The notes beneath the pieces were generated by a model that saw nothing but the letters and a program-made list of their open reading frames with translations, did no database searches and was not told where the DNA came from. Of a stretch of DNA of 64,000 nucleotides, positions 14,689-30,402 are shown one piece after another. The stretch is from a virus. Lineage: Duplodnaviria; Heunggongvirae; Uroviricota; Caudoviricetes. Made by a program: the position numbers and the translations under genes. The first letter of the stretch is position 1; the number at the start of each line of letters is the position of its first letter. The stretch lies in the IMG/VR virus record IMGVR_UViG_3300030032_000362; one strand, written 5' to 3'.

Positions 14689-15045
14689 TTATTCAATTGG
14701 AACACTTAAATCTAAATAAAGTTTGTGAACGCTGCTTGGCTCTCCTTGCAAAACTCGCTGTAAATATGCTTTATATCCTATCATGTCTAGTTTTCCTGTA
14801 ACAAGCAATTTATCAATAACCATATCTAAAATAGCTAATGTATTTTCATCATATTGATGCGGCTTTTCAGAAAATGTAAAACAGCCACCTTTACCAAGAA
14901 CTTTATATTTTTTATCATATGGTGCATCAGAAAATTCATGCTGTAAAGTCGCTCGTTTTGATATTAACTCTCTTGTTTGCAAATCCACAACTTCCCATTG
15001 ACGAGGTCTAAAGATATAATATTCACCTAAAGAATTTTTTCCCAA
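14689..15045 (-). CDS. Hypothetical protein (118 aa), translationally coupled to the transglutaminase-like gene
   Basis: Overlaps 15027..15977 by 19 nt. Confidence 0.4.
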   Translation of the reverse strand: MGKNSLGEYYIFRPRQWEVVDLQTRELISKRATLQHEFSDAPYDKKYKVLGKGGCFTFSEKPHQYDENTLAILDMVIDKLLVTGKLDMIGYKAYLQRVLQGEPSSVHKLYLDLSVPIE

Positions 15046-15977
15046 AAGCTAGGAATGACAAATTGAGCAAGAAAATATTTTCCGTTTTCTTGATAAATTA
15101 CCGGCTTTGATACACCATTTTTTTCTATCCAGCAAGGGAAATTTCTTTTTGCTATATTAGGATATTCATTAAATATCTCTTTCTTTGATGCAGAAGTGGT
15201 ATCATAGCATAATTTTTCTATAGTATATTTATTTTGTATCGTCTCTTCGCCCTGTAAAAAATGAAGAAGCTTCTTTTTCTTTCCTAATTCAAATGGAGTT
15301 GCGTCCAATAAATACCATTTGCCATTGATTTGAACTTCATTCCACATATGGTCTTCGCTACAAACAATTACACATGGGATTTCATAATGATTACACAAAA
15401 CTTTAATTAAACTCGCTATCCCGGCGCAGCAGCCTTCTTTATGAGATAGAACATATCCAACATTTTGAGTTTCGCCTATGTCCTTTGCTTTATCAATATA
15501 ACTCCAACTTCGATATACAAATGTTCTTAATATAAATACAGTAATAGCGTAAATTTTGTATTGCGCCGGATAAGGTTCAATATATTTCAATTTTTCAAGT
15601 ATTTCATTATAACTTCTTTTGTATTCGAGTGCATCAGCATTAAAAATAACAGGATTATATAATTCATCTACATGCACTTCTATCATATATTTTCCATCTT
15701 CTTGTTTACTTAAAAGTCCTTGAAATTCTGCCCAAAAAATTTCAGGATGTTCAAGGGACAAAGTAATGCTCGCCCGATAAAGATTTTCTATTGTCATACA
15801 ATCCTTGCTCACAAGTATAATTGATTCTGTATTACATACCACATTTTCTATATCAAAGCAATATGTATGATATAATGTTGTATAAATTTGTTTCTCAATT
15901 TTTGTTAATTGCTTATAATAAAAATTGTTTGGTTCTTCTAAAACTGATTCCTTTAATTCTACATATTTGCTTGACAT
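15027..15977 (-). CDS. Cytoplasmic transglutaminase-like cysteine-protease-fold protein
   Basis: Cys-His-Asp core: HKEGCCAGIASLIKVLCNHYEIPCVIVCSEDHMWNEVQINGKWYLLDAT. No signal peptide. The whole protein is homologous to residues about 880-1180 of the 1312-aa surface protein. Confidence 0.6.
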   Translation of the reverse strand: MSSKYVELKESVLEEPNNFYYKQLTKIEKQIYTTLYHTYCFDIENVVCNTESIILVSKDCMTIENLYRASITLSLEHPEIFWAEFQGLLSKQEDGKYMIEVHVDELYNPVIFNADALEYKRSYNEILEKLKYIEPYPAQYKIYAITVFILRTFVYRSWSYIDKAKDIGETQNVGYVLSHKEGCCAGIASLIKVLCNHYEIPCVIVCSEDHMWNEVQINGKWYLLDATPFELGKKKKLLHFLQGEETIQNKYTIEKLCYDTTSASKKEIFNEYPNIAKRNFPCWIEKNGVSKPVIYQENGKYFLAQFVIPSFWEKIL

Positions 15978-16629: not shown

Positions 16630-16645
16630 AAATTAACCTTCTTTC

Positions 16646-16897: not shown

Positions 16898-17036
16898 ATA
16901 TACAATACAAAAAGTGCAAAATTTGTAATTTTATATTTAAATCAATGGGATAATATTATTTTTTCTATATTATACAACAAAATTAGAGTAAAATCAACAA
17001 AGAAAAAAAAGAGGGAACTTATCGTCCCCTCTCTTA

Positions 17037-20000
17037 TCATTTCTTCACTTTCATTGTTTTCACAAATCCGGTCTTTTTCTTCTGAATCAGCTTTTTGTAC
17101 TTCTTCAACTGTTTCTTTGGCACCTTGAATGTAGCTTTCTTATAAATTCCTTTGAAAGCATTCTTTCCGATGCTCTTCAGCTTTGCTGCCTTAATAGTTA
17201 CTTTCTTCAGCTTCTTGCAGCCTTTGAAAGCATTTTTCGCAATCGAAGTTACGGTATACGTCTTTTTGCCAATCTTTACTTTATTCAAGATGGTAACGCT
17301 TTTCACTTTCTTCGATGTGCATTTCTTGACAACCGCATACTTTCCGGAAATAGCATATACCACTTTTCCTTTCGTTGCAGAAGTTACGGTTACTGCTTTT
17401 GGCTGCGCAGGTATAGGTTTTACGTTTGGCTGCGTAGGCATAGGCTTTACGTTTGGCTGCGGAACTGTTGGCTCTACATAATCATCATCAGACAACACCG
17501 GAACAGGATAGTCTGTTTCAATTTTATGATGTTCGTCTGTGACCGATTTTGCGCCCTTTAAAAAGTAATCATATCGAATCGGTTCTGTGTCATCCCATGT
17601 TGCATCTAGCAAATACCATTTTCCGTCAACCTGAATCTCATTCCACATATGGTCTACGCTGGACACGTTAATGCAAGGAATTTCATAATAATCGCATAAA
17701 ACTTTTATCATTTTTGCGTAAGATACGCAACATCCTTCTCCGTGTGTCATCATATAACCAATAGAACGAGTTTCATCCGTGCATACAGCGCCTAAAATAT
17801 TGGTTGAATTTCGATAACTATATGTGTTTACTACATAATCATGAATTAATTGTACTTTCCCTTTGATTGATGCTTGCTGAATTCCGGATTTGTCTAATGA
17901 TGAAATAATTCCATTAAAAAATCCTTTATATTCAAGAGCGTCTGCCTTAAAAGCAGTTTCATTATAAGCAGCTAAAGGCAAAACACCACTGGCATATCTT
18001 CCATCTACTTCTTTTACTCCGGAACCGTAAAAATAGAAAATCCAAAATATGGATGGATTATCCAAATATACGGCATAACTTGCATGCATCACATTTTTAT
18101 TTGTGATTTTATCAGTAGCGTAAAACATAATTTTTTTCATTTTACACTCGCCTTTATCCATGTCAAATTTATAATAATTATAAATTGTCGTATAGATTTT
18201 CTTCTCAACATCTGTGAGCTGGTTGTAATACCATTGATTGCTTTCCATCGGCTTTTCAGCATAAGGAATTTCTGTTTCAGTCCCATCAAGAGCCATTATT
18301 TGATTCGTTGGTCGTATCGTGTTGTTTGGATTCCACAAAGCCTTTAAATGGTAATCTGTAGCATTTTGAGGATTAATAATATCAACATAACCGTTTAGCT
18401 CCTCGCAGTACCATCCGGCAAAGGAATAGCCCTCTTTTGTCATGTATCTTGGTAAATCAATCGGGTCATCCTTATACTTATACTCTTTCGGGATTTCTGT
18501 TCCCTTCGGAAGAGTACCTCCATTTAAGTCAACAGAAATACGATAGGTTGTTCCTTCATATACCGCTTCCAAGGTCAAAGGACCGGAGGTATCTGCATCA
18601 ATTTTAGTAATAATCTTGTTGTTCAAGGTATTACGCCATCCGCAGACATAAAATCCCTTTCTCTTTACATTGGTCGGCAGGTCAAATTCATCACCGTAGG
18701 AGTAAGTTTTCGGGTATTCTCCAACAAACTCACCGCCAAGAGTATCATAAGTGATGCCGTAAATGCGGTTTGCTGCTTCCACATAGACTTTTAAGTTGTT
18801 CTTCAATGCATAATTGGACGGGAAAGGAATGGTTACGGTCGAATTCTTGTCTTCACAAGTTCCGGCACTTACCTCTGTTCCGTCTGCTGTTTCTACACGG
18901 TAGCTCTGAATATAACGGTTTGTATTGCACTTCATAATCAATGAATTGATTTTTTCGCCATACTCATACGTTACTTCGTTTGTTTTGTCCAGCTCACGGT
19001 CGCCAAGAAAAGCGGTTGTGTCACTGTACTTTGTACTGAATGTTACCGATGGCTTTTTATACCATGCGGCATAAAGCGTGGTGTCTTTTGCAATATCCCA
19101 CTTATTCTTTCCGGAACTGTAGTTGATTACAGCCGTTTCACGTTCCGTTACCGGAATCGTTTTTGTCCGGTCTGTTACCCATCCGGCAAAGTCATAAAAT
19201 TTGGAATACAGATATGGGAAGTCTTCCCATGCATCATAAGTAAACTCGTACTCTGTTTTCGACTGTGAATTCGTCACAAACGTTACTTTGTACGTGTTTG
19301 GTTTCCAAATAGCATATACAATTACAGTATCTACCTTTCCACTCAAATCGTCTACTACATCTCCATCTTTTGCATACGACCATCCGGTAAAGGAATAGCC
19401 GGTCTTCTCAAAACGGCATGTTGGATTGGCTTTTGTGTCATAGGTTACATCCAAGTCATCCATACTGCCGGAAGTGGCACCGTTCCCATCGAATACTACT
19501 TTGTGGGTTCTTGCCGTCCAATGTGCATAGAGCGTGTGGTTTTCCGCGCGGGTCATCTGTGTATCTTCCGTTACTTTTGTTCCACCTTTTTTTGCCGTGT
19601 ACCATCCGTCAAAGGTGTAACCGTATCGGGATGCCGTTGTTAAGGAATAATCCTTATCGAACGTGTTTGGCAATTCAGCGTCTTTCACTTCTCCTCCGTT
19701 AGCATCAAAAGATACTGTATAGGTGATTGGTTCCAGAATTGCCTTGAAAATAGAGTTGCAATCTACCGTCATGGTAGTTTCCGGTTCTAATTTCTCCGGC
19801 TCTCCTACTGCTTCTCCGTCTGCATTCATTGAATACTTTTCCCAACGAATCAGCTTATACCCTACGCTCGGATAAAAGTTTTCCGGCAGATTTGGTGAAA
19901 AAACTTCCTGATAGGAATGTTCTTCGTTCTGCACGTTGGTATTCTGATTGTTTCGGAAAGAAATCTGATAGACTTCCGGTGTCCATTTGGCATAGACATC

Positions 20001-20975
20001 TGTTCCATCCGGAACTTTCAATAAAACGCCGTCTTTGTCGAAAATCTGAGTGTTTTTCTCAAAATATCCTTCAAATACATAGTGGTCTTTCTTTGGTGGG
20101 TAGATGTTGCCGAAACTACGGCTTTTCTCATCCTCTTTACCCTCAAACACATATACCGAGTCATATTTCAGACCACTGCCCCCGCGGTTTACTTCACCGC
20201 CATCCGGAGCATCTGCATGAAGCGTAACTTCTTTTGCGGCCGCACCAATGTAAGGGAACTTGTCCGGGTCTTTTAAGATGGCCGGGATATTGGTTTTGTA
20301 CTTCGTTTTGTAAACAGTTTTTAATGTGTTTTCCGGAGTAGTTACTGGTCCGCGGAATACGAAACCGCTAGACGTATTATCTGTTCCGTCCAATGTAATA
20401 TTTGGAGAGTTGCAATAGACAAGATTTTGGTTAAAGCAGTTTTGTCCAATTTTTTCTAAAGAATCTGGCAAATAAATAGTTACATCTCCTCTATATCCTT
20501 CATCCTTGCTTCCATAACCATCCTGACTAAACGCCCAATCATTAACCGTTTTCAGCCCCGTACAAGCCGTGGCGTCAACGACAATGCCTGAACTGGTGAC
20601 GTTGAAGGAGCCGAGAAAAAACGAATCCTTGTTTTTCGCGTCTGCATCTCCTAATGATTCCACCTTGTGATAGGCGATGATTTTTCCATCTTCATTACAT
20701 TCCGGTACTTTATCCGGAATAATGATGTCTTTGGTGATTTTTTTTGAGAATTTTCCGTCCTGATATACTCCAATTATATGAACATTACGAGCTGCGCTGC
20801 TTTCATCGCCCGATACTGCATCATATTCCCAGATAATATCTCCCTGTTCTGTCCCTGCGTACCCACTCACCGCATTCTGTTTTCCCTCTTTAATATAACA
20901 AGAACCGACTAACAGGCCGGCAACAAACAATGTGCAGATAGCAAAGGATATAATATTTCTTTTTCTTGCTTTCAT
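17037..20975 (-). CDS. Giant secreted surface protein (1312 aa) with Listeria-Bacteroides repeats, a transglutaminase-like domain, a Pro-rich linker and a Lys-rich LRR-like C-terminal tail
   Basis: Signal peptide MKARKRNIISFAICTLFVAGLLVGSCY. Several GY-F-GW...LYA-W repeats. Cys-His-Asp core THGEGCCVSYAKMIKVLCDYYEIPCINVSSVDHMWNEIQVDGKWYLLDAT. Linker PTVPQPNVKPMPTQPNVKPIPAQP. The last roughly 110 aa are about 65% identical to the tail of the 1896-aa protein. Confidence 0.75.
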   Translation of the reverse strand: MKARKRNIISFAICTLFVAGLLVGSCYIKEGKQNAVSGYAGTEQGDIIWEYDAVSGDESSAARNVHIIGVYQDGKFSKKITKDIIIPDKVPECNEDGKIIAYHKVESLGDADAKNKDSFFLGSFNVTSSGIVVDATACTGLKTVNDWAFSQDGYGSKDEGYRGDVTIYLPDSLEKIGQNCFNQNLVYCNSPNITLDGTDNTSSGFVFRGPVTTPENTLKTVYKTKYKTNIPAILKDPDKFPYIGAAAKEVTLHADAPDGGEVNRGGSGLKYDSVYVFEGKEDEKSRSFGNIYPPKKDHYVFEGYFEKNTQIFDKDGVLLKVPDGTDVYAKWTPEVYQISFRNNQNTNVQNEEHSYQEVFSPNLPENFYPSVGYKLIRWEKYSMNADGEAVGEPEKLEPETTMTVDCNSIFKAILEPITYTVSFDANGGEVKDAELPNTFDKDYSLTTASRYGYTFDGWYTAKKGGTKVTEDTQMTRAENHTLYAHWTARTHKVVFDGNGATSGSMDDLDVTYDTKANPTCRFEKTGYSFTGWSYAKDGDVVDDLSGKVDTVIVYAIWKPNTYKVTFVTNSQSKTEYEFTYDAWEDFPYLYSKFYDFAGWVTDRTKTIPVTERETAVINYSSGKNKWDIAKDTTLYAAWYKKPSVTFSTKYSDTTAFLGDRELDKTNEVTYEYGEKINSLIMKCNTNRYIQSYRVETADGTEVSAGTCEDKNSTVTIPFPSNYALKNNLKVYVEAANRIYGITYDTLGGEFVGEYPKTYSYGDEFDLPTNVKRKGFYVCGWRNTLNNKIITKIDADTSGPLTLEAVYEGTTYRISVDLNGGTLPKGTEIPKEYKYKDDPIDLPRYMTKEGYSFAGWYCEELNGYVDIINPQNATDYHLKALWNPNNTIRPTNQIMALDGTETEIPYAEKPMESNQWYYNQLTDVEKKIYTTIYNYYKFDMDKGECKMKKIMFYATDKITNKNVMHASYAVYLDNPSIFWIFYFYGSGVKEVDGRYASGVLPLAAYNETAFKADALEYKGFFNGIISSLDKSGIQQASIKGKVQLIHDYVVNTYSYRNSTNILGAVCTDETRSIGYMMTHGEGCCVSYAKMIKVLCDYYEIPCINVSSVDHMWNEIQVDGKWYLLDATWDDTEPIRYDYFLKGAKSVTDEHHKIETDYPVPVLSDDDYVEPTVPQPNVKPMPTQPNVKPIPAQPKAVTVTSATKGKVVYAISGKYAVVKKCTSKKVKSVTILNKVKIGKKTYTVTSIAKNAFKGCKKLKKVTIKAAKLKSIGKNAFKGIYKKATFKVPKKQLKKYKKLIQKKKTGFVKTMKVKK

Positions 20976-21053
20976 AAATAATCTCCTTTCTTAAAGCGAT
21001 TCAGTTGTACGGCAGTTAGTTACTACCGGACTCCTGTTGTTTTTAGTATAGTA

Positions 21054-21067
21054 TTAATATGTCTGTT
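21054..21067 (-). promoter_or_regulatory. Conserved promoter motif copy
   Basis: TTAATATGTCTGTT upstream of the 17037..20975 gene. Confidence 0.6.
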
Positions 21068-21127
21068 AAGTAATTGATACAACTTAACATATGAAGGAGA
21101 AAGAGATAGCCCTCTATGAGATAGGGA

Positions 21128-21688
21128 CTATCCCTGTACGGTATCTTTTAAACTTATTTCAGATGGCTCCTTTATAGTATCTTTTATGTTTTGCCATTTA
21201 TCTGATATATCATCTGTTTGTTCTTCTTCTAATTTTTCATTAACATTATGTAGCATTGGATACATTCTAATATCATATTTTTGAATATTTTTCACAATAG
21301 CAACTGCGCTTTCATCTTCTTGTGGATTAAATAAGTACTTTGCTATAATTTCAGGCAACTTCAATAACGAAATTATAATTGTCCCAAAAGATGACACAAG
21401 CGGTGTTAACGTTGCGGTAATCATATTAAATGAAACATGATTTGATTTTATCATATTTTGTATCATACTGATTGTGTATGTAATTGTATAATGAAATGTA
21501 TACACCAATCCACTTAATATAAACATAACAATAGCAAAAAACAACATCTTCATTATAAACTTTGCCCATGTATTTCGCCGTATTCCATTTACATAATTGT
21601 CAATTAATTTTGTATATCCATCAGAACGAGCTTCATGTCCTTCTTTCTTTGAATCTTTAATCGTTATCATCGCAAAGTACTTCTCCAA
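21128..21688 (-). CDS. Membrane protein (186 aa)
   Basis: Hydrophobic segments (FFAIVMFILSGLVYTF; LTPLVSSFGTIIISLL). Overlaps the upstream peptidase gene by about 30 nt. Confidence 0.4.
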   Translation of the reverse strand: MEKYFAMITIKDSKKEGHEARSDGYTKLIDNYVNGIRRNTWAKFIMKMLFFAIVMFILSGLVYTFHYTITYTISMIQNMIKSNHVSFNMITATLTPLVSSFGTIIISLLKLPEIIAKYLFNPQEDESAVAIVKNIQKYDIRMYPMLHNVNEKLEEEQTDDISDKWQNIKDTIKEPSEISLKDTVQG

Positions 21689-22358
21689 TTCTTTTTATTA
21701 TAGATGATTTTTTTACCTTAAAGTATCTTGCAAGATATTCAATTACAAAAATTTGGCTTCCATCCGGATTATATCTTTTATCACAACAAGCATCTATGTA
21801 TTGTTTCATAAATAATTCACGTGGCATAAGCAATTCAGCTGCGAAACGGTCTGCCCGTATTTCTTTTTCAGAACAATGATTGTTTTTGGGATAAGTTTCC
21901 GTAAATAAATGATTTTTATTCCGATATTTAGGATTTCCCAAACAATCAAATAAATAATGACCAAGTTCATGAGCTGCTACAAAACGTTGATGTTCAAATG
22001 GTTCATTTTTATCTGTTGCAATTACTTTGTCATAATCAAGACATTTTTCTGTTGTTCCGTGAACATAAATTACACCAGATATTTTTTTTCTTAATTTTGA
22101 CACACCAAACACTTTTAAACCAAAAGCCTCTATTATTGGTTCAATTGGCGTTTCTCCACGATAATTATAACCAAGACATTTTGATATATCTAATATCTCA
22201 TGTGCAATTTCAGCCGCCTGCTTTGGCGTAAGATTTTGCAAAGACTCGCCTGGTTCTTTCGTGAGACGATTAATTAAATTTTCAAAGTCCTTTCGTGCTT
22301 TCATTGTCTTATCCTTTTCTTTTTGGTTTATCTTATTAAATCTGATTATATTTCCCAT
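21657..22358 (-). CDS. ImmA/IrrE-family zinc metallopeptidase (DUF955/COG2856)
   Basis: HEXXH motif AHELGHYLFDCLG. The start was moved to ATG 22356-22358 (MGNIIRF), which has an AAAGGGGG RBS; the track ORF extends to 22442. Confidence 0.55.
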   Translation of the reverse strand: MGNIIRFNKINQKEKDKTMKARKDFENLINRLTKEPGESLQNLTPKQAAEIAHEILDISKCLGYNYRGETPIEPIIEAFGLKVFGVSKLRKKISGVIYVHGTTEKCLDYDKVIATDKNEPFEHQRFVAAHELGHYLFDCLGNPKYRNKNHLFTETYPKNNHCSEKEIRADRFAAELLMPRELFMKQYIDACCDKRYNPDGSQIFVIEYLARYFKVKKSSIIKRIGEVLCDDND

Positions 22359-22569
22359 AGTACAACCCCCTTTTCTGTTACTGTAGTGTATCAGATAAGT
22401 TGTAGCTTGTCCCATGAAATTTGTCGAATAGATATTATTCATCTATTTGACACTTTTATTATAACAAAAAACTAATTATTTGACAAGTTTTGCAAATTAT
22501 ATTTTTGTCAATCATGTGAATGATTGAAAGTCACTGTATTATCTTTATAATAAAATCTTTCCCCATCTG

Positions 22570-23133
22570 TCATCTATTATATACCTCTGAAATACGCCTT
22601 TTAGCCGCAAGAAGAGGCACCCTAAAAATTTGTGATAGCATACTAATTATCATTTCCGGGTCACCAATTCGTTTAAACAATCCTTCATAAACATTTTTAA
22701 AATGTTCAGCAGGCATCAAGATGCAAGTAGCAAAATAATCCGCTTCTTGTTCTTCTTCTGATTTATCCTTATGAAAATCCACATGCAAAAAAGCAGTTTT
22801 TTTATTTATTCTGTTTTCATCATAATGTAATGCAAAATGTCCGAGTTCGTGTGCAACAATAAATCTTTGTTGGTAATCATCAAGGTTATCTTCAAATAAA
22901 ATTTCTTTTATTATAGTATCATTTTCTTTTCGGATTATAATTCCTCCATCTACATTTTCTTCATGAAAAGTAGCAGATGAGACTTCGAATCCTTTAGCTC
23001 TCGCTAAAATAATAGTATCAATAATTTCATTATCCATTCCCTGTCTAAACTTTTCCGCTTTTTGTTCAATTTCTTTTTTTCGTTCTAGTGTTAAGCGCAT
23101 ATATACCATACCCTCTATATTTGTTTTTTTCAT
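22570..23133 (-). CDS. ImmA/IrrE-family zinc metallopeptidase, second copy
   Basis: HEXXH motif VAHELGHFALHYDENR. 187 aa. Confidence 0.55.
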   Translation of the reverse strand: MKKTNIEGMVYMRLTLERKKEIEQKAEKFRQGMDNEIIDTIILARAKGFEVSSATFHEENVDGGIIIRKENDTIIKEILFEDNLDDYQQRFIVAHELGHFALHYDENRINKKTAFLHVDFHKDKSEEEQEADYFATCILMPAEHFKNVYEGLFKRIGDPEMIISMLSQIFRVPLLAAKRRISEVYNR

Positions 23134-23282
23134 GTAACTATCTCCTATTTTATCAATATATATTTCCTCTTGTCAACTATTATTATGCTCAAATAATAAG
23201 AAAATCCAATACACTATAATAGTAGTATTGTTTTCTAGCACCATATTGTTACAAAAGAATTGTTAAAATTACATTTCCCTTT

Positions 23283-23296
23283 TTAATATGTCTGTT
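23283..23296 (-). promoter_or_regulatory. Conserved promoter motif copy
   Basis: TTAATATGTCTGTT upstream of 22570..23133. Confidence 0.55.
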
Positions 23297-23603
23297 TGGC
23301 ATTAATTTAAATGCTCTATTGACAAAATTAGTGTTTAATCTCTATAATTTATGTATATTCTTAAGAAAGGAACGATATACAGTTGAACGATACATCAAAA
23401 TATGTCACATTATGTCACAACTTAATAGCAGAATACTTAGAAGACGATACCCCTAAGACGTTTAAGAATTATAAGCTGATAGTGAACTACTCGGAAATAA
23501 GTTACCGAGCTACTTGCTTCAACCACTGCTGCTTGGCTAATACGAAACAGTATATTAAAAAAAATAAGAGGGAGCATTTGCCCCCTCTTTTCTATTCCAG
23601 ATT

Positions 23604-26600
23604 TCATTTTCTGACTTTCATCGTCTTAACGAATCCGGTTTTCTTTGTGAACAGTTTCTTGTATTTCTTCAAATACTTCTTAGGCGCTTTAATCTTAGCC
23701 TTTTTACTGATACCCTTAATCGCGTTCTTTCCAATCTTTTTCAAGGAAACACTCTTAACGGTAATCGTTTTCAGTTTCTTGCAGCCCTTAAAGGCGTTTT
23801 TAGCGATTGCGGTTACTTTGTACTTTTTGCCGTTAATAGTTACTGTTTTCTGAATTGTTACCTTTTTCAGCTTTTTACTTGTAACCTTTTTAACGAAAGC
23901 ACTTTTACCGCTAACCTGGTATACTACCTTGCCTTTTGTTACCGTCTTAGCTTTTGTAGCAATCGTTTTTGATGGATTAAGCGATGGCGTCTGAATCGGT
24001 GATGGGTCTGAGCTCGGGCTAGGTGTTGGGTTTGGTTCCGGTCTAGGTGTTGGATTTGGCACCGGACTAGGAACAACAGGGTCAACAACATTACCCTTTG
24101 TTTTCCATACAGCATATACATCTGCGCCATTCACGCCCATAGTAACCTCTGTTACAATATCGCCATCTGTACCATCAGGCTCTTCCGCCCAACCAACGAA
24201 AGTATAACCAACACGTTCCGGCATTCGCATATTCAACACTGCTTTAGAACCCCAAATAAAGGTATCTTCGCTTTCCGTAAAGTCCGGTGCTCCTGCATAA
24301 TTCTGATGGAATCTTACTTTACCGTAGTCGCGGTCTAAGATAATCGTAAATGCAGCACCATCTTCTACTTTGTGTTTCAAAACAGAATCCGGATTTACAT
24401 GATAACCGTCCGGTACATGGAAGTCATAATTTGCTTCCAGTTTGAGGTCAGTGCCCTGTACAGCAGAGCCGGTAGCAACCGTTACTTCATATGTTTCGTC
24501 TGCTTTTTGAGTCTTTGTGGTGATTGTGTAACTTGTATCACCGGCAGTACCCCATACAGCATATAAAGTAATGCTTTCCTCTAAATCCGAAATCACATCA
24601 CCGGCTTTGTATTCCGGTTCTGTTGCCCCCTGAATGGTGGACCAACCAAGGAATACTCTTCCATCACGAGTTGTCTCGAATCCCGGCAAAGTAATTGTAT
24701 GACCCTCATAAACTGTCAACGTAGTAGCATCTGTTGTTCCACCATTGCCATTAAAAGCAATTTGATTTCCCTTTTGGTCATCGTCAACAGCCCAGATTGC
24801 ATACAAGTGAATCGTTTCTCCGGCAGATGCCAGATTGGTCGCTTTGTATTTATCATAATACTCAGCATTTGTTGCTTTTGCATCGCGGTTCCATCCAAGG
24901 AATTTGTAACCGGTACGTGTGAACGCGTTGGCGCTTAACTCCTGCTTAATATCAGAAGATAAAGTCTGTACATCCATCGTTCCGTTACCACCGTTTGCAT
25001 GATATGTGATAAAGTAATTTGCCGGTTTCCAAACAGCATACAAAGTTACTGTCTGATTCTTGCCCGCAAGGTCTTTTACGGTATCTTTGTCCGTATACAT
25101 TGCTTTCGTAGCATTTCTGTCGGTAGACCAACCGAGGAACTGATAACCTTTTCGGCCAAAAGCATTTTTCGTCAAATTGACGTTTGCTTTTGTATCAAAG
25201 GCATCTGCTTTCATAACGCCTTCTGTTGCTCCGTTGCCATTATAAGCAACTGTATACTGGTCATGTTTCCAAACAGCATACAAAGTAAGATTCATGGTTC
25301 CGTCCCATATTTTTGTAGACTTTCCGTTTTCGTCAAAGTATTGAACTCCGCCATTTTCGGAACTGAAATATCCTACAAAACTATAATCTTCTTTTTCCGG
25401 AATTACAATCGGAGGAATCGGTTTGCCGTTTACAACGTAAACTTTTTCATCTCCGTTAATACCGCCCATTGTGTTCAATTGAACAACATAAGCCGGTTTT
25501 CCGTAAGAAGTACAGGACTTATTCAAGTACGTCTGCGAATAAATATCCGCTGTAGAGTTGGTGTATCCTTTGATTTCTGCTTCATTCGGAACTAATGGAC
25601 CGGCCGGGAATTTACAATTTGGATTTTCTACACCCAAAACGTTAAGCATAGAATCTGCAAAAGCATTTTCCCCAAAGCTGATTAAGCTATCGCCGGTTGT
25701 GAACTCAGTAAGAGCGGTTCCGGCAAAAGCATTTTCACCAATTGTTTCAAACTGGTCCGTATCTTTTAAGGTTGTAAGAGAACTACAACCGTTAAATGCA
25801 TTGTTCGGGACATTCATTACTCCGCCAAAGGAAACACTGACTAAGCTTTCCGCTTCTTCAAATGCTCCTTCGCCCAATGTAATCCCCGTCTTTGGCAATT
25901 CAATTGCGGTAAGTCCAGAATTTGCAAATGCGCTTTCTCCGATTTCAGCCAAAATAGCTTCTTCATCGAACGAAATTGTTGTTAAATTCTTGCAGCCTTT
26001 AAAAGCGCCTGCATTGATTTTCTTTAACAACGGTCCAACGGTTACTTCAACAAGATGAGCCGGAGAATCCTGTACATAAGAATACTCTTCTGTCTTGTCT
26101 TTTTCATACCCAACCATAAGAGAAATCGGATATTCATGTGCCATAGCGAAGTCGTATGCTTTACTCTTGTAATAGCATTTAACAACTGTGCTGTTCGGGA
26201 ACACGGCGCTGATTTCATCATAAGTAAGGTTTGTACTCATTCCTTCAAAAGTTACTTCATTGAGAGTGAAACATCCATTAAATGCTCCTTTTCCAACTAA
26301 GACAACAGATTCCGGAATGGAAACTTCCGTTACGTTTGCCTTTGCAAAAGCAAATGCTCCAATATTAGATAAAACACTTTGGTCTTCAAATTCAATGGTC
26401 TCTAAAGCGGCAATACTGGAGAAAGCACGTTCTCCGATTGACTGTACTGTATTTGGAATTTCCAACTCAGCAATCTTTGTGTTATTGAATGCATAAGAAC
26501 CAATTGTCTGAACACGGCCCAGTGTAATATCTTTTAAGTTTACGCAGCTATCAAAAGCATTGTTTCCAATACTTGTGATATTAACCGGAATATCAAACGA

Positions 26601-29294
26601 TTCCATAGTTACTTCATCTTTGAAGAAATCATCCGGAATCGTTGTGAGAATTTCATAAGATTCACGGTTTGCGTTCTGGCAATAGCTTGCCACGCTTGAC
26701 CCCTGAAATCCAACCAATTTCTCTGTTGTATTCGGAATGGAATCTTTCTCCAAAGTAGTTCCCGGATTTTTCACCGTTACAGAATGTAAGTTTGTGTCAG
26801 CGAAAGCGTTTTTCTCAACCGTTTCTACCGAATACGGAATTGCTACATTTTTAACTGTGCAGCCGGCAAAAGCATTTGCCTGAATTGTTTCGCATACTTT
26901 GCTGATTTCCGGATTATCACTGTGCTTTTTCGGGCAGTAAACCAAAATGGATTTATCTTTATTGTAAAGCAATCCACCTTCTGATGCATAATCAGCATCT
27001 TTTGAGTTTACCGTAATGGATTCCAAGTTTGCAAATTTACTAAAATTCATGTCCGCAATATTATCTACATCAACGGCAAATGCAATTTTTTTAGCGTTTG
27101 CACATTCTGCATAAATAATAGAGCGAGTATTTTCTGAATTTTTGTAAATTGTTACGGTATCATCCGAAGTGTTGTAATCGTAAATATGAGTATAATTGGC
27201 TACATAATTGCGATTTCCAACAGAACCTTTTGTAATTACGACATCTTTTTCCGGAGTGTCACCGTTGCTGCCGGTCCATCCGTCAAATACATATCCCTGC
27301 TTTGTTGGTGTATTCAGATGAATATCATCATCCTCTACTGTATAATTGCTAACATTTGCAGCAGTTCCACCATTCAAATCATAAATGATTGAATAAGTGT
27401 TTTTGTCATAGACAGCAGACAATGATTTTGTTTCATTGATGGTATATGTTCCATTAAATCCATCCCAAGAAGAGAATGTATAACCTTTCTTTTCCGGAAC
27501 AGGCAAATTAATGGTTGTTCCACCGACTTTTACAATTGAAAAATCAGTTTCATAAATAGCTCCATCATAAGTTACTTTTCCACCATTTGAAGAGAGTTTT
27601 GTTTGATAACAAACAATTTTTTTAGCAGCGGATACATTTCCTGCGCTGTCTTTAGCGAAAAAGTAATAAGTTCCTGCAGCAGAAATTGTTTTATCTACCG
27701 AAAATGATTTTGTGGAAGCCACTTTGGTATAAGCAGAACTTACTGGACTAGCCGAAGTTCCAAAATAATAAGAAGTAACTCCTACATTATCACTAGCCTC
27801 TAACGTCACAGACTGATTTTTGCCCGCCGTAATATTAGAAGTAATACTTCCTTCCGGAGCAGTTTTATCCACAATTGCAAATATTTTTGTAACTGAACCG
27901 GAATAATTTCCTGTACCATTTATTACGGCAACGGCAGTTCCAACATTTGTATTGCTGCTGTAAGATACTGTATAGTCTCGTCCAAGCACCAAGGCCTTTT
28001 TAGTATAAGGATTTTTTGCCGTTACGCTATTGGTGATTGCACTTCCGATGTAAGGAACAGACGAATTCATCAAAGCAACCGAACAATCTGTTATCGGGCA
28101 TTTATCAACCATTAAAGTCCCCTCTATGAGGTTACTGTTTTTGGTTGATTTAATTGCCTTTGTATAATTGCCGGCATCCAAAACATCATCTTTTGTGTAG
28201 CCGGATAAGCCACTACCCATTGCATACCGTAAAGACTGATTTGCATTTGGCGCAACGAAATAATATCCTTTAGATGTTTGTTTCGTGTAATTGTAGCCAA
28301 CAAACCCACTTTCTGTCATAGCAGAATCAAGAGCGTCTGAAACAGTCTGTCCATAAGTAATAGATGATGCAATTGACTGATAATCACCATTTGCCTTCTT
28401 GTAAGATACATTTTTGGTAGTATCTAATGCTGCCTTGTAAATATTTAATGAAGCAGAGTTCGATGCATCAAGATAATTAAGGCAACATCCTGTTTCTGCA
28501 GAAGTATAGATTTTATCTTTTGCTGCGCTGTTTTCTCCATAGACAGTAAGCCATAACTTATCACTTTCGTCACAATCTGAACCCGTCTTATTAAAGGTCT
28601 TGTCATCTAACGAAATACTTGATGCAATGTTTCCAAACAGCAAATAACCATGTAAACTTGTGCAGTTATCAAATGCTGCTTGTAAATCACAAACATCATG
28701 ATTTGCGTCTCCCATTGGACACCAAATATGCTCTAATTTTCCACAATTCTGAAAAATACCTTTTGCATACTCTACCGGCGGAAGACGAAATACTTCAACC
28801 AAATTTACACAATTAGCAAAAGCATATTCCAAAACGCCATCTCCGTCCAATTTCATGCCGGAATTCAGCCCACCAATAACATACTTGATTTTCTTTTTAG
28901 CAGCAGTTGACATGTTAGTCAAACAATTGCCCATAACATAATAACCGGCATCATCCATTTTCGCAGACGGACGGTTATTTTCCATCTTGTAAAAAGCAAA
29001 AACGCCATTTTTATCAATGCCCCAATAGGTAATTAATGCGTTATTCACATAAGAATAACCAGCGGTTCCACTTTCAACAATGGAGTTGACATCAAAAGAG
29101 ACATTCGAAAGATTGCGTTTTTCTGCGCTTTCTTCATATTCGGCAACAGACCCGGTTGCTACACTTTGCACAGCGGCTTTGCTTCGGATTGAACCGATAT
29201 TACCGCTTAAAAGCATTGCTAAAGCCAAAACTCCGGCTACCGAACGTTTAAAGATTTTTCTTTTTCTCATGAAAATAAAATCTCTCCTTTCCAA
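23604..29294 (-). CDS. Giant secreted surface protein (1896 aa) with BspA-type leucine-rich repeats, Listeria-Bacteroides repeats, Ig-like regions, a Pro-rich linker and a Lys-rich LRR-like C-terminal tail
   Basis: Signal peptide (KRSVAGVLALAMLLSGNIGSIRSKAA). Many NAF-GC--L--V-IP-SV--IG--AF units. GY-F-GW...LYAVW repeats. Linker PVVPSPVPNPTPRPEPNPTPSPSSDPSP. The tail KGKVVYQVSGKSAFVKK...GFVKTMKVRK is shared with 17037..20975. Confidence 0.8.
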   Translation of the reverse strand: MERRDFIFMRKRKIFKRSVAGVLALAMLLSGNIGSIRSKAAVQSVATGSVAEYEESAEKRNLSNVSFDVNSIVESGTAGYSYVNNALITYWGIDKNGVFAFYKMENNRPSAKMDDAGYYVMGNCLTNMSTAAKKKIKYVIGGLNSGMKLDGDGVLEYAFANCVNLVEVFRLPPVEYAKGIFQNCGKLEHIWCPMGDANHDVCDLQAAFDNCTSLHGYLLFGNIASSISLDDKTFNKTGSDCDESDKLWLTVYGENSAAKDKIYTSAETGCCLNYLDASNSASLNIYKAALDTTKNVSYKKANGDYQSIASSITYGQTVSDALDSAMTESGFVGYNYTKQTSKGYYFVAPNANQSLRYAMGSGLSGYTKDDVLDAGNYTKAIKSTKNSNLIEGTLMVDKCPITDCSVALMNSSVPYIGSAITNSVTAKNPYTKKALVLGRDYTVSYSSNTNVGTAVAVINGTGNYSGSVTKIFAIVDKTAPEGSITSNITAGKNQSVTLEASDNVGVTSYYFGTSASPVSSAYTKVASTKSFSVDKTISAAGTYYFFAKDSAGNVSAAKKIVCYQTKLSSNGGKVTYDGAIYETDFSIVKVGGTTINLPVPEKKGYTFSSWDGFNGTYTINETKSLSAVYDKNTYSIIYDLNGGTAANVSNYTVEDDDIHLNTPTKQGYVFDGWTGSNGDTPEKDVVITKGSVGNRNYVANYTHIYDYNTSDDTVTIYKNSENTRSIIYAECANAKKIAFAVDVDNIADMNFSKFANLESITVNSKDADYASEGGLLYNKDKSILVYCPKKHSDNPEISKVCETIQANAFAGCTVKNVAIPYSVETVEKNAFADTNLHSVTVKNPGTTLEKDSIPNTTEKLVGFQGSSVASYCQNANRESYEILTTIPDDFFKDEVTMESFDIPVNITSIGNNAFDSCVNLKDITLGRVQTIGSYAFNNTKIAELEIPNTVQSIGERAFSSIAALETIEFEDQSVLSNIGAFAFAKANVTEVSIPESVVLVGKGAFNGCFTLNEVTFEGMSTNLTYDEISAVFPNSTVVKCYYKSKAYDFAMAHEYPISLMVGYEKDKTEEYSYVQDSPAHLVEVTVGPLLKKINAGAFKGCKNLTTISFDEEAILAEIGESAFANSGLTAIELPKTGITLGEGAFEEAESLVSVSFGGVMNVPNNAFNGCSSLTTLKDTDQFETIGENAFAGTALTEFTTGDSLISFGENAFADSMLNVLGVENPNCKFPAGPLVPNEAEIKGYTNSTADIYSQTYLNKSCTSYGKPAYVVQLNTMGGINGDEKVYVVNGKPIPPIVIPEKEDYSFVGYFSSENGGVQYFDENGKSTKIWDGTMNLTLYAVWKHDQYTVAYNGNGATEGVMKADAFDTKANVNLTKNAFGRKGYQFLGWSTDRNATKAMYTDKDTVKDLAGKNQTVTLYAVWKPANYFITYHANGGNGTMDVQTLSSDIKQELSANAFTRTGYKFLGWNRDAKATNAEYYDKYKATNLASAGETIHLYAIWAVDDDQKGNQIAFNGNGGTTDATTLTVYEGHTITLPGFETTRDGRVFLGWSTIQGATEPEYKAGDVISDLEESITLYAVWGTAGDTSYTITTKTQKADETYEVTVATGSAVQGTDLKLEANYDFHVPDGYHVNPDSVLKHKVEDGAAFTIILDRDYGKVRFHQNYAGAPDFTESEDTFIWGSKAVLNMRMPERVGYTFVGWAEEPDGTDGDIVTEVTMGVNGADVYAVWKTKGNVVDPVVPSPVPNPTPRPEPNPTPSPSSDPSPIQTPSLNPSKTIATKAKTVTKGKVVYQVSGKSAFVKKVTSKKLKKVTIQKTVTINGKKYKVTAIAKNAFKGCKKLKTITVKSVSLKKIGKNAIKGISKKAKIKAPKKYLKKYKKLFTKKTGFVKTMKVRK

Positions 29295-29360: not shown

Positions 29361-29415
29361 AGCCCACCCTAAAAACAAACAAGAAAAAAAGAGCCCTTTT
29401 CAGGCTCTTTACATT

Positions 29416-30402
29416 TTATAATTCTATATCATCATCTTGCGGTATTATCTTATTTTCCAATTCAATATTTTTTAAATATTCTGGATAAATCATTTTATCA
29501 AAACGAGTTTCTACACTTTCCATTATATATTGTTTTCTTTCTTTTGAACATATCTCCCAATCTCCTACCTTCTCTGGAATAGCAGAAATAAATTGTCTAA
29601 TATCTGGCAATTTCTCTTTTATAATAGGCGACAAACGCTTTATTGCTTCCTTTAACTCTAAATCATCATATTGAATCATTTTTTTTGCCGAAAGTATATG
29701 CCCATCTACTTCATAAGCAGTACGAGACCCAATATATAAATCACTTTTATTTTTATCATGTATTATTTTATTTATCCTTTCGTCACTCGATTTATTAGAA
29801 AAAGAATTGCCATTATCATATACCGGAGCAACATTATATGTTTTATTCTTTTCATTATATAAGAGTCCCCAATTGCCGTTATTTCTATCTGTATTATCAA
29901 TAAGTATATCAACAACCACCATATTCCAAAATCTTGAAATTGCGTCAGGACATTTTTTTACAATAGGATTATATTGTAAATGCAATAATAATTCTTTGAG
30001 ATTGACTCTATCTCCTGTTCCAGAATAATGCATTTGTTCATCTAATGTTTTTGACAATTCTTTATTTGCTGCATTTTTTAAGCTTCTCATTTCCATAAGA
30101 GAGCCTCTTGTTTTGCAAAAATCTTTACAAGCAACTACTACTTTATTGTTTCTAACTCCAAGTGCCGTTTCGTGAACAGGAATACCTAACATATCATATA
30201 TATGGCTTCCAACAAATTCAGATAATGGAGAGGTTGTATAAGACATGCCTAAAGGTGTTTTAAACGCTCGTTCTGTTTTAGGATATTTTATAATCCAATA
30301 ACTATTTCCCATCATAATACCATCTTTGTCCCCAGCCATGCCAGCATAAGAACCATGCCGGTCACTATATTCACAATTTTCAAAATTATAAATATTAATC
30401 AT
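29416..30402 (-). CDS. HipA-like serine/threonine kinase domain protein
   Basis: VVVDILIDNTDRNNGNWGLL and NVAPVYDNGNSF resemble the HipA C-terminal catalytic-loop and activation segments (D-H-KN-S...aP-YD). Confidence 0.45.
   Translation of the reverse strand: MINIYNFENCEYSDRHGSYAGMAGDKDGIMMGNSYWIIKYPKTERAFKTPLGMSYTTSPLSEFVGSHIYDMLGIPVHETALGVRNNKVVVACKDFCKTRGSLMEMRSLKNAANKELSKTLDEQMHYSGTGDRVNLKELLLHLQYNPIVKKCPDAISRFWNMVVVDILIDNTDRNNGNWGLLYNEKNKTYNVAPVYDNGNSFSNKSSDERINKIIHDKNKSDLYIGSRTAYEVDGHILSAKKMIQYDDLELKEAIKRLSPIIKEKLPDIRQFISAIPEKVGDWEICSKERKQYIMESVETRFDKMIYPEYLKNIELENKIIPQDDDIEL

What the first reader, a model, noticed from the sequence alone, without database searches (positions are those of the whole stretch)
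17037..29294. Two giant adhesin-like proteins share a conserved Lys-rich LRR-like C-terminal tail in place of an LPxTG anchor
Both proteins end with a Pro-rich linker, then about 110 aa that are about 65% identical (KGKVVY-xSGK-A-VKK-TSKK-K-VTI...IAKNAFKGCKKLK...GFVKTMKVKK). There is no sortase motif. The tail is very basic, suiting non-covalent binding to teichoic acids or membrane. The upstream domains (Listeria-Bacteroides repeats, BspA LRR, Ig-like) are classic adhesion modules. Together they probably play the mating-pair-formation / aggregation role that PrgB-type proteins play in enterococcal plasmids.
Basis: partly seen in the sequence, partly recalled or inferred. Interest (0 to 1): 0.6.

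Follow-up and report, generated by a model that had tools for sequence, protein, structure and literature searches.

The report
Lysine-rich LRR tail on surface proteins
Two very large secreted proteins on a gut-bacterial conjugative element end in the same small, extremely lysine-rich leucine-rich-repeat domain, a module that ends many unrelated secreted proteins in Lachnospiraceae and probably holds them on the cell surface without a sortase anchor.

Summary
Both proteins (1312 aa and 1888/1896 aa, minus strand) end with a Pro-rich linker and a 112-aa tail. The tails are 71% identical, 34% Lys, contain no acidic residues and carry a net charge of +39. Neither protein has a C-terminal LPxTG.

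The tail is not a new fold. It passes the Pfam LRR_5 (BspA-type LRR) threshold and models confidently as a minimal LRR with an N-cap, two repeats and a C-cap helix.

It is a general module, not one specific to conjugation. In 1.43 Mb of mostly Lachnospiraceae loci, 118 of 119 copies lie within 10 aa of a stop codon. They sit on 106 distinct proteins, most with a signal peptide, whose other domains include GH5, GH43, GH84, CAP and Big_2. Related proteins in other Firmicutes carry SLH or dockerin modules at the same position.

The best reading, inferred rather than shown, is a non-covalent electrostatic surface-retention module.

The mating or aggregation role is weakly supported. The gene pair keeps its synteny in three element variants next to the coupling protein. 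However, a close p1 orthologue sits among housekeeping genes, each gene has its own terminator, and no PrgB-type domain is present.

The parts
17037..20975 (-). p1: 1312-aa secreted multidomain protein. Order of parts: signal peptide or possible lipoprotein, degenerate N-terminal region, InlB-type B-repeats, transglutaminase-like domain, Pro-rich linker, basic LRR_5 tail.
   Evidence: ORF and translation. Pfam: Flg_new 1.1e-35, Transglut_core 24.1 bits (cut-off 23), LRR_5 35.7 bits (cut-off 27.7). About 47 orthologue clusters at 67-93% identity.
20898..20975 (-). p1 signal peptide with a lipobox-like LLVGSC (residues 1-26)
   Evidence: Sequence. LLAGSC is conserved in 44 of 47 orthologues and absent in the 3 most divergent. 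Lipoprotein status is not proven.
18336..19976 (-). p1 Listeria-Bacteroides (InlB B-repeat, Flg_new) repeat region, about residues 334-880
   Evidence: Pfam Flg_new 4 stretches, TIGR02543 3 stretches. The boundaries were read from the repeat motif in the sequence and are approximate.
17481..18239 (-). p1 transglutaminase-like (papain-fold) domain, residues 913-1165. It has Cys-His-Asp motifs GCCVSYA / DHMWNE / LLDATWDD. The Pfam core is 17601-17861.
   Evidence: Pfam Transglut_core residues 1039-1125. AF2 model m57147474e85a, pLDDT mostly 70-90. Top Foldseek hit is S. pyogenes TglA, 9crn, E 6.7e-10 over 279 columns. The motifs align with 9crn by phmmer.
17376..17480 (-). p1 Pro-rich linker (residues 1166-1200, YVEPTVPQPNVKPMPTQPNVKPIPAQPKAVTVTSA)
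   Evidence: Sequence. pLDDT is below 50 for model residues 259-285. It is the least conserved segment among orthologues, 41% identity.
17040..17375 (-). p1 tail: 112-aa Lys-supercharged minimal BspA-type LRR domain (beta-hairpin N-cap, two LRR_5 repeats, C-cap helix)
   Evidence: Pfam LRR_5 36.1 bits for the tail alone. AF2 pLDDT 94. Foldseek hits 4gt6, 6mlx, 4oju. phmmer hits the last repeat plus C-cap of 4fs7, E 1e-18. It is 95-97% conserved among orthologues.
17007..17035 (-). Terminator-like hairpin with a T-run immediately after the p1 stop codon
   Evidence: 12-bp stem. This is a consensus match only.
23604..29294 (-). p2: 1888/1896-aa secreted multidomain protein (probable start ATG 29270). 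Order of parts: SPase-I type signal, N-terminal region, B-repeats, large LRR_5 array, five B-repeats, Pro-rich linker, basic LRR_5 tail.
   Evidence: Pfam LRR_5 8e-74 (4 stretches), Flg_new 8.3e-43 (5 stretches). Only one orthologue cluster, P0391, 96% identity, 250 members.
25605..27152 (-). p2 internal, non-basic BspA-type LRR array (about residues 715-1230), containing the non-functional internal LPKTG
   Evidence: Pfam LRR_5 best stretch 884-1011. Weak tblastn similarity of the tails to 25719-26888. Sequence. Boundaries are approximate.
23943..24086 (-). p2 Pro-rich linker (about residues 1737-1784)
   Evidence: Sequence. 13 Pro in 30 aa. Not homologous to the p1 linker.
23607..23942 (-). 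p2 tail: 112-aa Lys-supercharged minimal LRR_5 domain
   Evidence: Pfam LRR_5 33.8 bits. 71% identical to the p1 tail, with synonymous sites saturated. The same tail plus 3' flank is 95% identical in DNA on a p1-like paralogue in L003.
23566..23589 (-). Terminator-like hairpin after the p2 stop codon
   Evidence: 10-bp stem, 6 GC pairs, T-run.
29388..29410 (-). Terminator-like hairpin between the HipA-like gene and the p2 start, suggesting p2 is its own transcription unit
30781..33069 (-). Context: type IV coupling protein (VirD4/TraG family) of the conjugative element
   Evidence: Pfam T4SS-DNA_transf 2.1e-61, TraG-D_C 4.4e-29.
3433..5853 (-). Context: VirB4-like conjugation ATPase. A VirB6-like membrane protein lies at 6276-7304 (weak match).
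   Evidence: Pfam P-loop_TraG 1.7e-11. TrbL_2 is weak here but is also called on the homologous gene in L001.
15027..15977 (-). Neighbouring 316-aa transglutaminase-like protein, conserved downstream of p1 in related elements
   Evidence: Pfam Transglut_core 5.3e-07. Homologues of 429-431 aa follow p1 in L086 and L088.

Best explanation
The shared tail is a complete but minimal BspA-type leucine-rich-repeat domain (Pfam LRR_5). It has a beta-hairpin N-cap, two repeats and a C-cap helix. Its solvent-exposed positions are almost all lysine: net charge about +39, with no acidic residue. A disordered Pro-rich linker tethers it to the rest of the protein.

It is one instance of a module that Lachnospiraceae place at the extreme C-terminus of many Sec-secreted, otherwise acidic, multidomain proteins. 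These include glycoside hydrolases, CAP proteins, Ig-like stalk proteins and LRR/B-repeat adhesin-like proteins.

Most likely mechanism (inferred, not shown): the C-terminus is the last part to leave the Sec channel. The polycationic domain then sticks electrostatically to anionic envelope polymers such as teichoic or lipoteichoic acids or other acidic wall polysaccharides. The Pro-rich segment spans the wall and the N-terminal modules project outward. This gives the same topology as an LPxTG, SLH or GW-anchored protein, but without sortase.

p1 and p2 are therefore surface-displayed proteins carried by a conjugative element. p1 combines B-repeats with a transglutaminase-like enzyme domain. 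p2 combines a large LRR array with B-repeats. They may help cell-cell contact during mating, but nothing here shows that.
For: SHOWN:
- LRR_5 membership: the tails alone score 36.1 and 33.8 bits against a cut-off of 27.7. The AF2 model has pLDDT 94. Foldseek and phmmer hit BspA-type LRR structures 4gt6, 6mlx, 4oju and 4fs7, including the terminal repeat plus C-cap of 4fs7.
- Charge: +39 per tail, while the rest of each protein has pI about 5.
- Selection: synonymous sites between the two tails are saturated while 71% of residues and 32 Lys columns are kept. Among 47 p1 orthologues the tail is 95-97% identical, against 41-72% for the preceding 400 residues.
- Modularity: the linker is predicted disordered and the tail folds on its own. 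Homology begins exactly at the tail. A p1-like paralogue carries the p2-type tail and 3' flank at 95% DNA identity.
- Distribution: at least 446 confirmed stretches in GTDB genomes, and the best 79 loci are nearly all Lachnospiraceae. 118 of 119 C-cap-containing copies end within 10 aa of a stop codon, and 33 of these were not used to build the model. Across 106 distinct proteins the last 75 aa carry +14 to +30, and the rest is net negative in 93 of 106. 84 of 100 complete ORFs have a signal-like N-terminus and only 7 have a lipobox-like motif, by a crude heuristic. Among the 79 seed ORFs the only LPxT[GAN] match was one internal LPGTA, with none at a C-terminus.
- Payloads are diverse: GH5, GH43, GH84, GH20, CBM6, CAP, Big_2, DUF6273, Transglut_core.
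- Positional equivalence: related Flg_new/LRR_5 proteins of other Firmicutes end in SLH (P0214, P0232, P0448) or dockerin (P0396) modules.

INFERRED: binding to anionic wall polymers and the resulting topology.
Against: - There is no experimental or direct computational evidence of wall binding.
- LRR domains are classically protein- or ligand-binding. LRR is not mentioned in the monoderm surface-display review PMC5817068, which covers the known wall-binding modules.
- p1 may already be lipid-anchored through a lipobox-like LLVGSC, which would make a second anchor unnecessary.
- The GTDB sample was selected with patterns taken from the Lys-rich C-cap and ranked by similarity to the query. Basicity and terminal position are therefore partly built in for the 79 seed loci.
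- The wall-polymer chemistry of the host lineage is unknown.
- The proteins could simply be released into the medium.
Confidence: 0.5

Rival explanations
1. Dedicated conjugation adhesins. p1 and p2 are the element's mating-pair-stabilisation or aggregation factors, functionally like PrgB of pCF10 or the thioester-domain adhesin of pLS20. The tail is only their means of attachment. This is compatible with the anchor model but adds a specific role.
For: - Both genes lie on the same strand between the T4CP (30781-33069) and the SPFH/VirB6/VirB4 genes.
- The order p2 - M78 peptidase(s) - p1 - transglutaminase-like gene is kept in two further element variants, L086 and L088, with p1 at 90% and 83% identity.
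- Surface adhesins on Gram-positive conjugative elements are an established theme (PMC7726212, PMC8092201).
Against: - A p1 orthologue (82% protein identity, 93% DNA identity over the N-terminal 2.5 kb) lies on a 1.1-Mb contig among ComEC, holA, signal peptidase and GH43 genes, with no T4SS genes within 10 kb.
- Terminator-like hairpins follow both genes and one precedes p2, which suggests separate transcription units.
- No polymer-adhesin (GbpC/PrgB), thioester or Cna-type domain was found by Pfam.
- p1 carries an enzyme-like domain.
- The flanking genes are accessory types: HipA-like kinase, M78 peptidases, MazF.
Confidence: 0.25
2. The tail is the distal binding tip rather than the anchor. 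The protein would be held by its N-terminus (lipid anchor in p1), and the polycationic LRR would bind anionic targets on other cells or in the environment, such as recipient teichoic acids, extracellular DNA, sulfated or sialylated mucins, or acidic plant polysaccharides.
For: - A lipobox-like motif is conserved in 44 of 47 p1 orthologues.
- LRR_5 proteins such as BspA, LrrG/HupY and PcpA are known as ligand-binding adhesins. p2 gives a partial NCBIfam HupY/LrrG hit and the tail gives a phmmer hit to PcpA.
- Polycations bind DNA, lipoteichoic acid and mucin non-specifically (general knowledge).
Against: - Only 7 of 100 family members have a lipobox-like motif, and 5 of those are p1 orthologues.
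- p2 and most other members have no other retention signal.
- The Pro-rich spacer followed by a terminal module is the architecture typical of wall-proximal ends.
- SLH and dockerin modules occupy the same position in related proteins.
- The payloads are too diverse for one shared external ligand.
Confidence: 0.15
3. The tail is a docking module that binds a specific acidic surface protein (S-layer or scaffold), analogous to cohesin-dockerin pairing, rather than binding wall polymers.
For: - LRRs are protein-interaction folds.
- The module is lineage-restricted.
- Tail genes cluster: 25 loci have more than one within 20 kb.
- Dockerin occupies the same position in a related protein.
Against: - No candidate receptor was identified.
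- The extreme and variable charge (+14 to +30 over 75 aa), with conservation mainly of core residues and Lys, suggests non-specific electrostatics rather than a specific interface.
Confidence: 0.08
4. There is no special function. The tail is just the last repeats of an ordinary LRR_5 domain, and its lysine richness is compositional drift in an AT-rich genome.
For: - The window has 30-43% GC, and Lys codons are AT-rich.
- A profile built from the tail hits 377,244 protein clusters as a generic LRR_5 repeat.
Against: - The same proteins are acidic outside the tail.
- The tail is the best-conserved segment of p1.
- Synonymous sites are saturated while amino acids are kept.
- 118 of 119 copies are terminal.
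- The internal LRR_5 array of p2 is not basic.
Confidence: 0.04

Closest known systems
BspA-type / TpLRR leucine-rich repeat proteins (Pfam PF13306 LRR_5; structures 4fs7, 4gt6, 6mlx, 4h09, 4oju)
   Same: The tail passes the Pfam gathering score. It has the same repeat motif (V..IG..AF.gC..L), the same fold by Foldseek, and the same C-cap (..VP...L..Y..). The family is common in gut Firmicutes (PMC2843621).
   Different: The tail has only two repeats plus caps. Nearly every exposed position is Lys (+39). It is always at the extreme C-terminus behind a linker and is used as an appendage on unrelated payloads. The solved proteins are long, near-neutral arrays that form the main body of the protein.
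Listeria InlB (LRR + B-repeat + C-terminal GW modules)
   Same: It is a secreted protein without LPxTG that carries the same B-repeat family (Flg_new is the InlB B-repeat). It is retained non-covalently by a strongly basic C-terminal module that binds lipoteichoic acid (established knowledge).
   Different: The tail is an LRR solenoid, not SH3-like GW modules. The NCBIfam internalin models score 29-45 bits against cut-offs of 1050-1600. The LRR class differs.
SLH, CWB1 (choline-binding), CWB2, LysM, WxL and dockerin surface-attachment modules of Firmicutes (review PMC5817068)
   Same: All are C-terminal, non-covalent, portable modules attached to diverse secreted enzymes and adhesins. SLH or dockerin sits at the equivalent position in related Flg_new/LRR_5 proteins.
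   Different: There is no sequence or fold relationship. None of these Pfam families matches p1 or p2. Binding by the LRR tail is not demonstrated.
PrgB/Asc10 aggregation substance and other polymer-adhesin-domain proteins of conjugative plasmids (PMC7726212); thioester-domain adhesin of pLS20 (PMC8092201)
   Same: These are large surface proteins encoded inside Gram-positive conjugative elements. PrgB binds lipoteichoic acid and DNA through a positively charged surface.
   Different: There is no homologous domain and no LPxTG. p1 also occurs in a chromosomal housekeeping neighbourhood with no T4SS genes within 10 kb. A role in transfer is untested.
Streptococcus pyogenes TglA, a transglutaminase-like domain protein (PDB 9crn)
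   Same: The pre-tail domain of p1 matches it by fold (E 6.7e-10, 279 columns), and the Cys/His/Asp motifs align.
   Different: Sequence similarity is marginal (E 0.083). I found no paper on TglA in the library, so no function can be transferred.

Membership tests
Pfam LRR_5 (BspA-type LRR) | Score at or above the curated gathering threshold | tested here: met
   Tails alone score 36.1 and 33.8 bits against a cut-off of 27.7.
Pfam LRR_5 (BspA-type LRR) | Right-handed beta-solenoid LRR fold matching solved BspA/TpLRR-type structures | tested here: met
   AF2 pLDDT 94. Foldseek probability 1.00 to 4gt6, 6mlx and 4oju. phmmer hits 4fs7 at E 1e-18.
Sortase-anchored LPxTG surface protein | C-terminal LPxTG followed by a hydrophobic segment and a short basic tail | tested here: not met
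   There is no C-terminal motif. The only LPKTG is internal, in an LRR repeat of p2. The C-termini are hydrophilic and Lys-rich.
Known non-covalent wall-binding modules (SLH, CW_binding_1/2, GW/SH3, LysM, WxL) | Pfam match to one of these families | tested here: not met
   Pfam scans of both whole proteins and of the tails list none at E<=0.01. NCBIfam gives nothing for the tails.
New wall-binding module (hypothesis) | Physical binding of the tail to the cell wall or its anionic polymers | not testable with these tools
   Only indirect evidence is available: terminal position, charge, payload diversity and positional equivalence.
PrgB/aggregation-substance-type conjugation adhesin | Polymer adhesin (GbpC-like) domain plus LPxTG anchor | tested here: not met
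   No such Pfam family was found in p1 or p2, and there is no LPxTG.
PrgB/aggregation-substance-type conjugation adhesin | Promotes donor-recipient aggregation and raises transfer frequency | not testable with these tools
   This needs mating assays. The context evidence is mixed.
Internalins (InlA/InlB/InlH) | Internalin-type N-terminal cap plus LRR, meeting the NCBIfam cut-off | tested here: not met
   internalin_H scores 45.4 bits against 1050, and internalin_A scores 29 against 1600. The matches cover only the B-repeat region.
Bacterial lipoprotein (p1 only) | Lipobox [LVI][ASTVIG][GAS]C at the end of the signal peptide | tested here: inconclusive
   LLVGSC/LLAGSC fits a permissive pattern and is conserved in 44 of 47 orthologues, but is absent in the three most divergent. 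No dedicated predictor was available.
Transglutaminase-like superfamily (p1 residues about 913-1165) | Pfam Transglut_core match plus a Cys-His-Asp triad | tested here: met
   The score is 24.1 bits against a cut-off of 23, so marginal. The fold matches TglA 9crn at E 6.7e-10. The CxxYA / HxWN / DxTW motifs align. Catalytic activity was not tested.
Conjugative element with a Gram-positive type IV secretion system (context) | Coupling protein plus VirB4-type ATPase, with VirB6-like protein and wall hydrolase | tested here: met
   T4SS-DNA_transf 2.1e-61, P-loop_TraG 1.7e-11, weak TrbL_2, and a glucosaminidase-domain protein at 57403-58380. No relaxase was recognised; ORF 33072-34520 has no Pfam hit.

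The most novel reading that the evidence does not exclude
The lysine-supercharged terminal LRR_5 minidomain would be a previously unrecognised, Lachnospiraceae-wide class of non-covalent cell-envelope anchor: an LRR fold repurposed as an electrostatic wall-binding module. These bacteria would use it instead of, or alongside, sortase to display hundreds of enzymes and adhesins. Mobile elements would borrow and shuffle it as a tail-plus-terminator cassette to decorate the donor surface.
Probability: 0.4. Interest if true: 0.65.

Novelty: new variant of a known kind. Interest (0 to 1): 0.42.

Why it matters
Lachnospiraceae are among the most abundant human gut bacteria, and how they keep enzymes and adhesins on their surface is poorly described. 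If this small polycationic LRR domain is a general anchor, it would have three uses:
- It would give a simple sequence signature for predicting the surface proteome of the family.
- It would provide a portable tag for surface display in hard-to-engineer gut anaerobes.
- It would help explain how conjugative elements change the surface of their hosts.

If it is only a terminal LRR repeat, the finding reduces to two ordinary, already-annotatable LRR/B-repeat proteins on a mobile element.

Tried and rejected
1. A profile search of 1.84 billion representatives with the tail alignment returned 377,244 hits dominated by giant generic LRR_5 repeat proteins. It was useless for locating the tail within proteins.
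2. The search for homologous proteins with the tail listed only proteins of 212 aa or less, mostly gene fragments, so it gave no architecture information.
3. PLSDB searches found nothing: megablast of the 12-kb region and tblastn of the tail. The low-complexity filter and the scarcity of Lachnospiraceae plasmids make this uninformative.
4. Eight literature searches found no description of a basic LRR anchor in Lachnospiraceae and no paper on TglA.
5. A recent duplication or gene conversion between p1 and p2 is rejected. DNA identity is about 70%, synonymous sites are saturated, and the linkers and 3' regions are not homologous.
6. A compositional artefact is rejected (see the last rival explanation).
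7. The internal LPKTG of p2 is rejected as a sorting signal because it lies within an LRR repeat.
8. Pfam scans of 20 other ORFs in the window mostly gave no hits. No relaxase, replication gene or integrase was recognised, so plasmid versus ICE remains undecided.
Full report
**Observation**

The window carries two long minus-strand ORFs: p1 at 17037-20975 (1312 aa) and p2 at 23604-29294 (1896 aa from a TTG). A gene caller on the source contig starts p2 at the ATG at 29270, giving 1888 aa.

Their C-termini are alike. BLASTP gives 59% identity over 124 aa, E 1e-23. tblastn without composition correction gives 65% over 124 aa. A global alignment of the last 112 aa gives 79 identities in 111 columns, with 32 shared Lys columns. 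No third copy exists in the window.

Each 112-aa tail has 34-35% Lys, no Asp or Glu, pI about 10.7-10.9 and net charge +39. The remainder of each protein has pI about 5.

Both tails follow Pro-rich segments with 9 and 13 Pro in 30 aa. At the DNA level homology starts exactly at TKGKVVY and the linkers are unrelated.

There is no C-terminal LPxTG. The single LPKTG in p2 lies inside an LRR repeat.

**What the tail is**

Each tail alone passes the Pfam gathering threshold of LRR_5, the BspA-type LRR: 36.1 and 33.8 bits against 27.7. NCBIfam has no model for it.

AlphaFold2 folds it with mean pLDDT 94 into a beta-hairpin, short parallel strands and a C-terminal helix. Foldseek's best PDB matches are BspA/TpLRR-type proteins 4gt6, 6mlx, 4oju, 4fs7 and 4h09. 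phmmer aligns it best to the last repeat plus C-cap of B. ovatus 4fs7, E 1e-18.

So it is a complete but minimal LRR_5 domain with an N-cap, two repeats and a C-cap. Its hydrophobic core positions are conserved (I, A, F, C, L, G, Y) and its remaining positions are largely Lys.

A model of p1 residues 913-1312 shows a folded transglutaminase-like domain, a linker with pLDDT below 50, and then the independently folded tail.

**Selection and modularity**

Between p1 and p2 the tail-coding DNA is about 70% identical. Synonymous sites are saturated and dN is about 0.22. The similarity is therefore old and maintained by selection, not a recent duplication.

Among 47 p1 orthologues the tail is 95-97% identical to p1. 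The preceding 400 residues are 41-72% identical, and the linker is only 41%.

In locus L003 a p1-like paralogue (P0168) carries the p2-type tail. That includes 45 nt beyond the stop codon, at 95% DNA identity to window 23559-23978. Tails are thus exchanged as cassettes.

**Distribution**

The best 79 loci are almost all Lachnospiraceae. They include the isolate Clostridium sp. AF37-5, whose copy is 99% identical to the p1 tail.

In 78 of these 79 loci the match lies 0-28 aa from the stop codon of an ORF of 200-2068 aa.

An HMM of the last 75 aa was run against every stop-to-stop ORF in 89 sources totalling 1.43 Mb. It found 119 domains that include the C-cap, of which 118 end within 10 aa of a stop. 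Thirty-three of these were not used to build the model. Twenty-five loci hold more than one such gene.

Across 106 distinct proteins the last 75 aa carry +14 to +30 (median +23). The rest of the protein is net negative in 93 of 106.

A crude heuristic finds a signal-like N-terminus in 84 of 100 complete ORFs. It finds a lipobox-like motif in only 7, of which 5 are p1 orthologues.

Pfam on 52 of these proteins shows very diverse payloads: Big_2 (10), DUF6273 (5), GH5 (4), CAP (4), GH43 (3), CBM6 (2), Transglut_core (2), and single cases of GH84, GH20 and others.

Related Flg_new/LRR_5 proteins from other Firmicutes end in SLH (P0214, P0232, P0448) or dockerin (P0396) modules at the same position.

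Caveat: the seed loci were selected by similarity to a Lys-rich, C-cap-containing query. Basicity and terminal position are therefore partly built in for those seeds. The 33 non-seed copies and the payload diversity are the more independent evidence.

**Mechanism**

The features are a portable, always-terminal, polycationic folded domain behind a Pro-rich spacer. It sits on otherwise acidic Sec substrates that mostly lack a lipobox and, in the set I checked, lack a C-terminal LPxTG. It occupies the slot of SLH or dockerin in related proteins.

Together these point to a non-covalent surface-retention module that binds anionic envelope polymers. This is an inference. No tool here tests binding. 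The monoderm surface-display review PMC5817068 does not mention LRR at all, and my literature searches found no description of such an anchor.

The alternatives are a distal polyanion-binding tip, a docking module for a surface protein, or no special role. They are weighed under the rival explanations.

**The rest of the proteins**

p1 has the following parts:
- a signal peptide with a lipobox-like LLVGSC, conserved as LLAGSC in 44 of 47 orthologues
- InlB-type B-repeats (Flg_new 1.1e-35)

The evidence for that third domain is Pfam Transglut_core at 24.1 bits against a cut-off of 23. Its fold matches S. pyogenes TglA (9crn) at E 6.7e-10, and the Cys/His/Asp motifs align.

p2 has an SPase-I-type signal, B-repeats, a large non-basic LRR_5 array (8e-74) and five more B-repeats. 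No Ig-like Pfam family was detected at E<=0.01.

**Context and the conjugation claim**

The window comes from a 143.8-kb human-gut metagenome contig. It encodes a type IV coupling protein (30781-33069) and a VirB4-like ATPase (3433-5853). It also encodes a weak VirB6-like protein (6276-7304) and a glucosaminidase-domain protein. It is therefore a conjugative element. I recognised no relaxase, replication gene or integrase, so plasmid versus ICE is undecided.

In favour of a role tied to the element, the order p2 - M78 peptidase(s) - p1 - transglutaminase-like gene ... SPFH is kept in two other variants, L086 and L088.

Against a dedicated mating role:
- A p1 orthologue at 82% identity lies on a 1.1-Mb contig among ComEC, holA, signal peptidase and GH43 genes without T4SS genes. 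It is next to an IS and other LRR_5/fn3 proteins.
- Terminator-like hairpins directly follow both genes and one precedes p2.
- The neighbours are accessory-type genes: HipA-like kinase, two M78 peptidases and MazF.
- There is no homology to PrgB polymer-adhesin or thioester adhesin domains (PMC7726212, PMC8092201).
- p2 has a single orthologue cluster (P0391, 96% identity, 250 members), so it looks specific to this element.

I put the chance that these proteins measurably aid transfer at about one in four.

**Verdict**

It is too narrow, because the tail is a family-wide module already classifiable as LRR_5.

What may be new is the functional reading of a Lys-supercharged terminal LRR minidomain as a general Lachnospiraceae surface anchor. 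That reading is cheap to test. I rate the finding as a new variant of a known kind, with interest 0.42.

Noticed in passing
window 39864-40441 (-), with tRNAs at 37871-38023 and 39778-41400 (-): A full-length ROOL RNA (Rfam RF03087, 368 bits against a cut-off of 99) lies inside an array of seven tRNA genes on the same strand of the conjugative element. The tRNAs are Gly-GCC, Ile-AAT, Ser-GCT, Glu-TTC, Gln-TTG, Asn-GTT and Ile-TAT.
   Followed up: partly
window about 16040-17000 (MazF-like ORF 16213-16629, small ORF 16646-16897): The MazF/PemK toxin cassette directly downstream of p1 is an insertion specific to this variant. Related elements L004, L086 and L088 align continuously on either side of it but lack these roughly 960 bp.
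   Followed up: partly
window 17481-18239 (-), p1 residues 913-1165; also ORF 15027-15977 (-): p1 contains a transglutaminase-like domain with intact Cys/His/Asp motifs whose fold matches S. pyogenes TglA (9crn). A separate transglutaminase-like protein is encoded just downstream and is conserved in related elements. The function is unknown.
   Followed up: partly
p1 residues about 801-1200 (window 17376-18575): This stretch is hypervariable among otherwise 80-97% identical orthologues (41-72% identity). DNA identity to the chromosomal copy drops to 72.5% here, against 93-94% on both sides. This suggests diversifying selection or recombination in the enzyme-like region.
   Followed up: no
L003 5280-5699 versus window 23559-23978: A p1-like paralogue (P0168) carries the p2-type tail and its 3' flank at 95% DNA identity. 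This is direct evidence that the tail plus downstream region is swapped between genes.
   Followed up: partly
window 1243-1664; L083 8647-9069; L003 73-495: A 423-bp segment covering a small ORF is 95.5% identical between the element and the chromosomal p1 locus, where it lies just upstream of the p1 orthologue. In the window it lies about 15 kb from p1.
   Followed up: no
window 8415-9344 (-) and 38220-39317 (-): The element encodes two SPFH/Band_7 family proteins. One lies next to the VirB6/VirB4-like genes and is conserved in related elements.
   Followed up: no
window 21657-22442 and 22570-23133 (-); 29416-30402 (-): Two ImmA/IrrE-type M78 peptidase genes lie between p2 and p1, and a HipA-like kinase gene lies just upstream of p2. 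The kinase gene ends at a bidirectional terminator-like hairpin at 29388-29410.
   Followed up: no
window 41658-57267: This is a long run of small same-strand ORFs. The six tested (43263-43859, 45971-46606, 46951-47550, 48982-49566, 51275-51910, plus 62176-62751 outside the run) have no Pfam match. ORF 33072-34520 (482 aa), next to the coupling protein where a relaxase might be expected, also has no Pfam hit.
   Followed up: no
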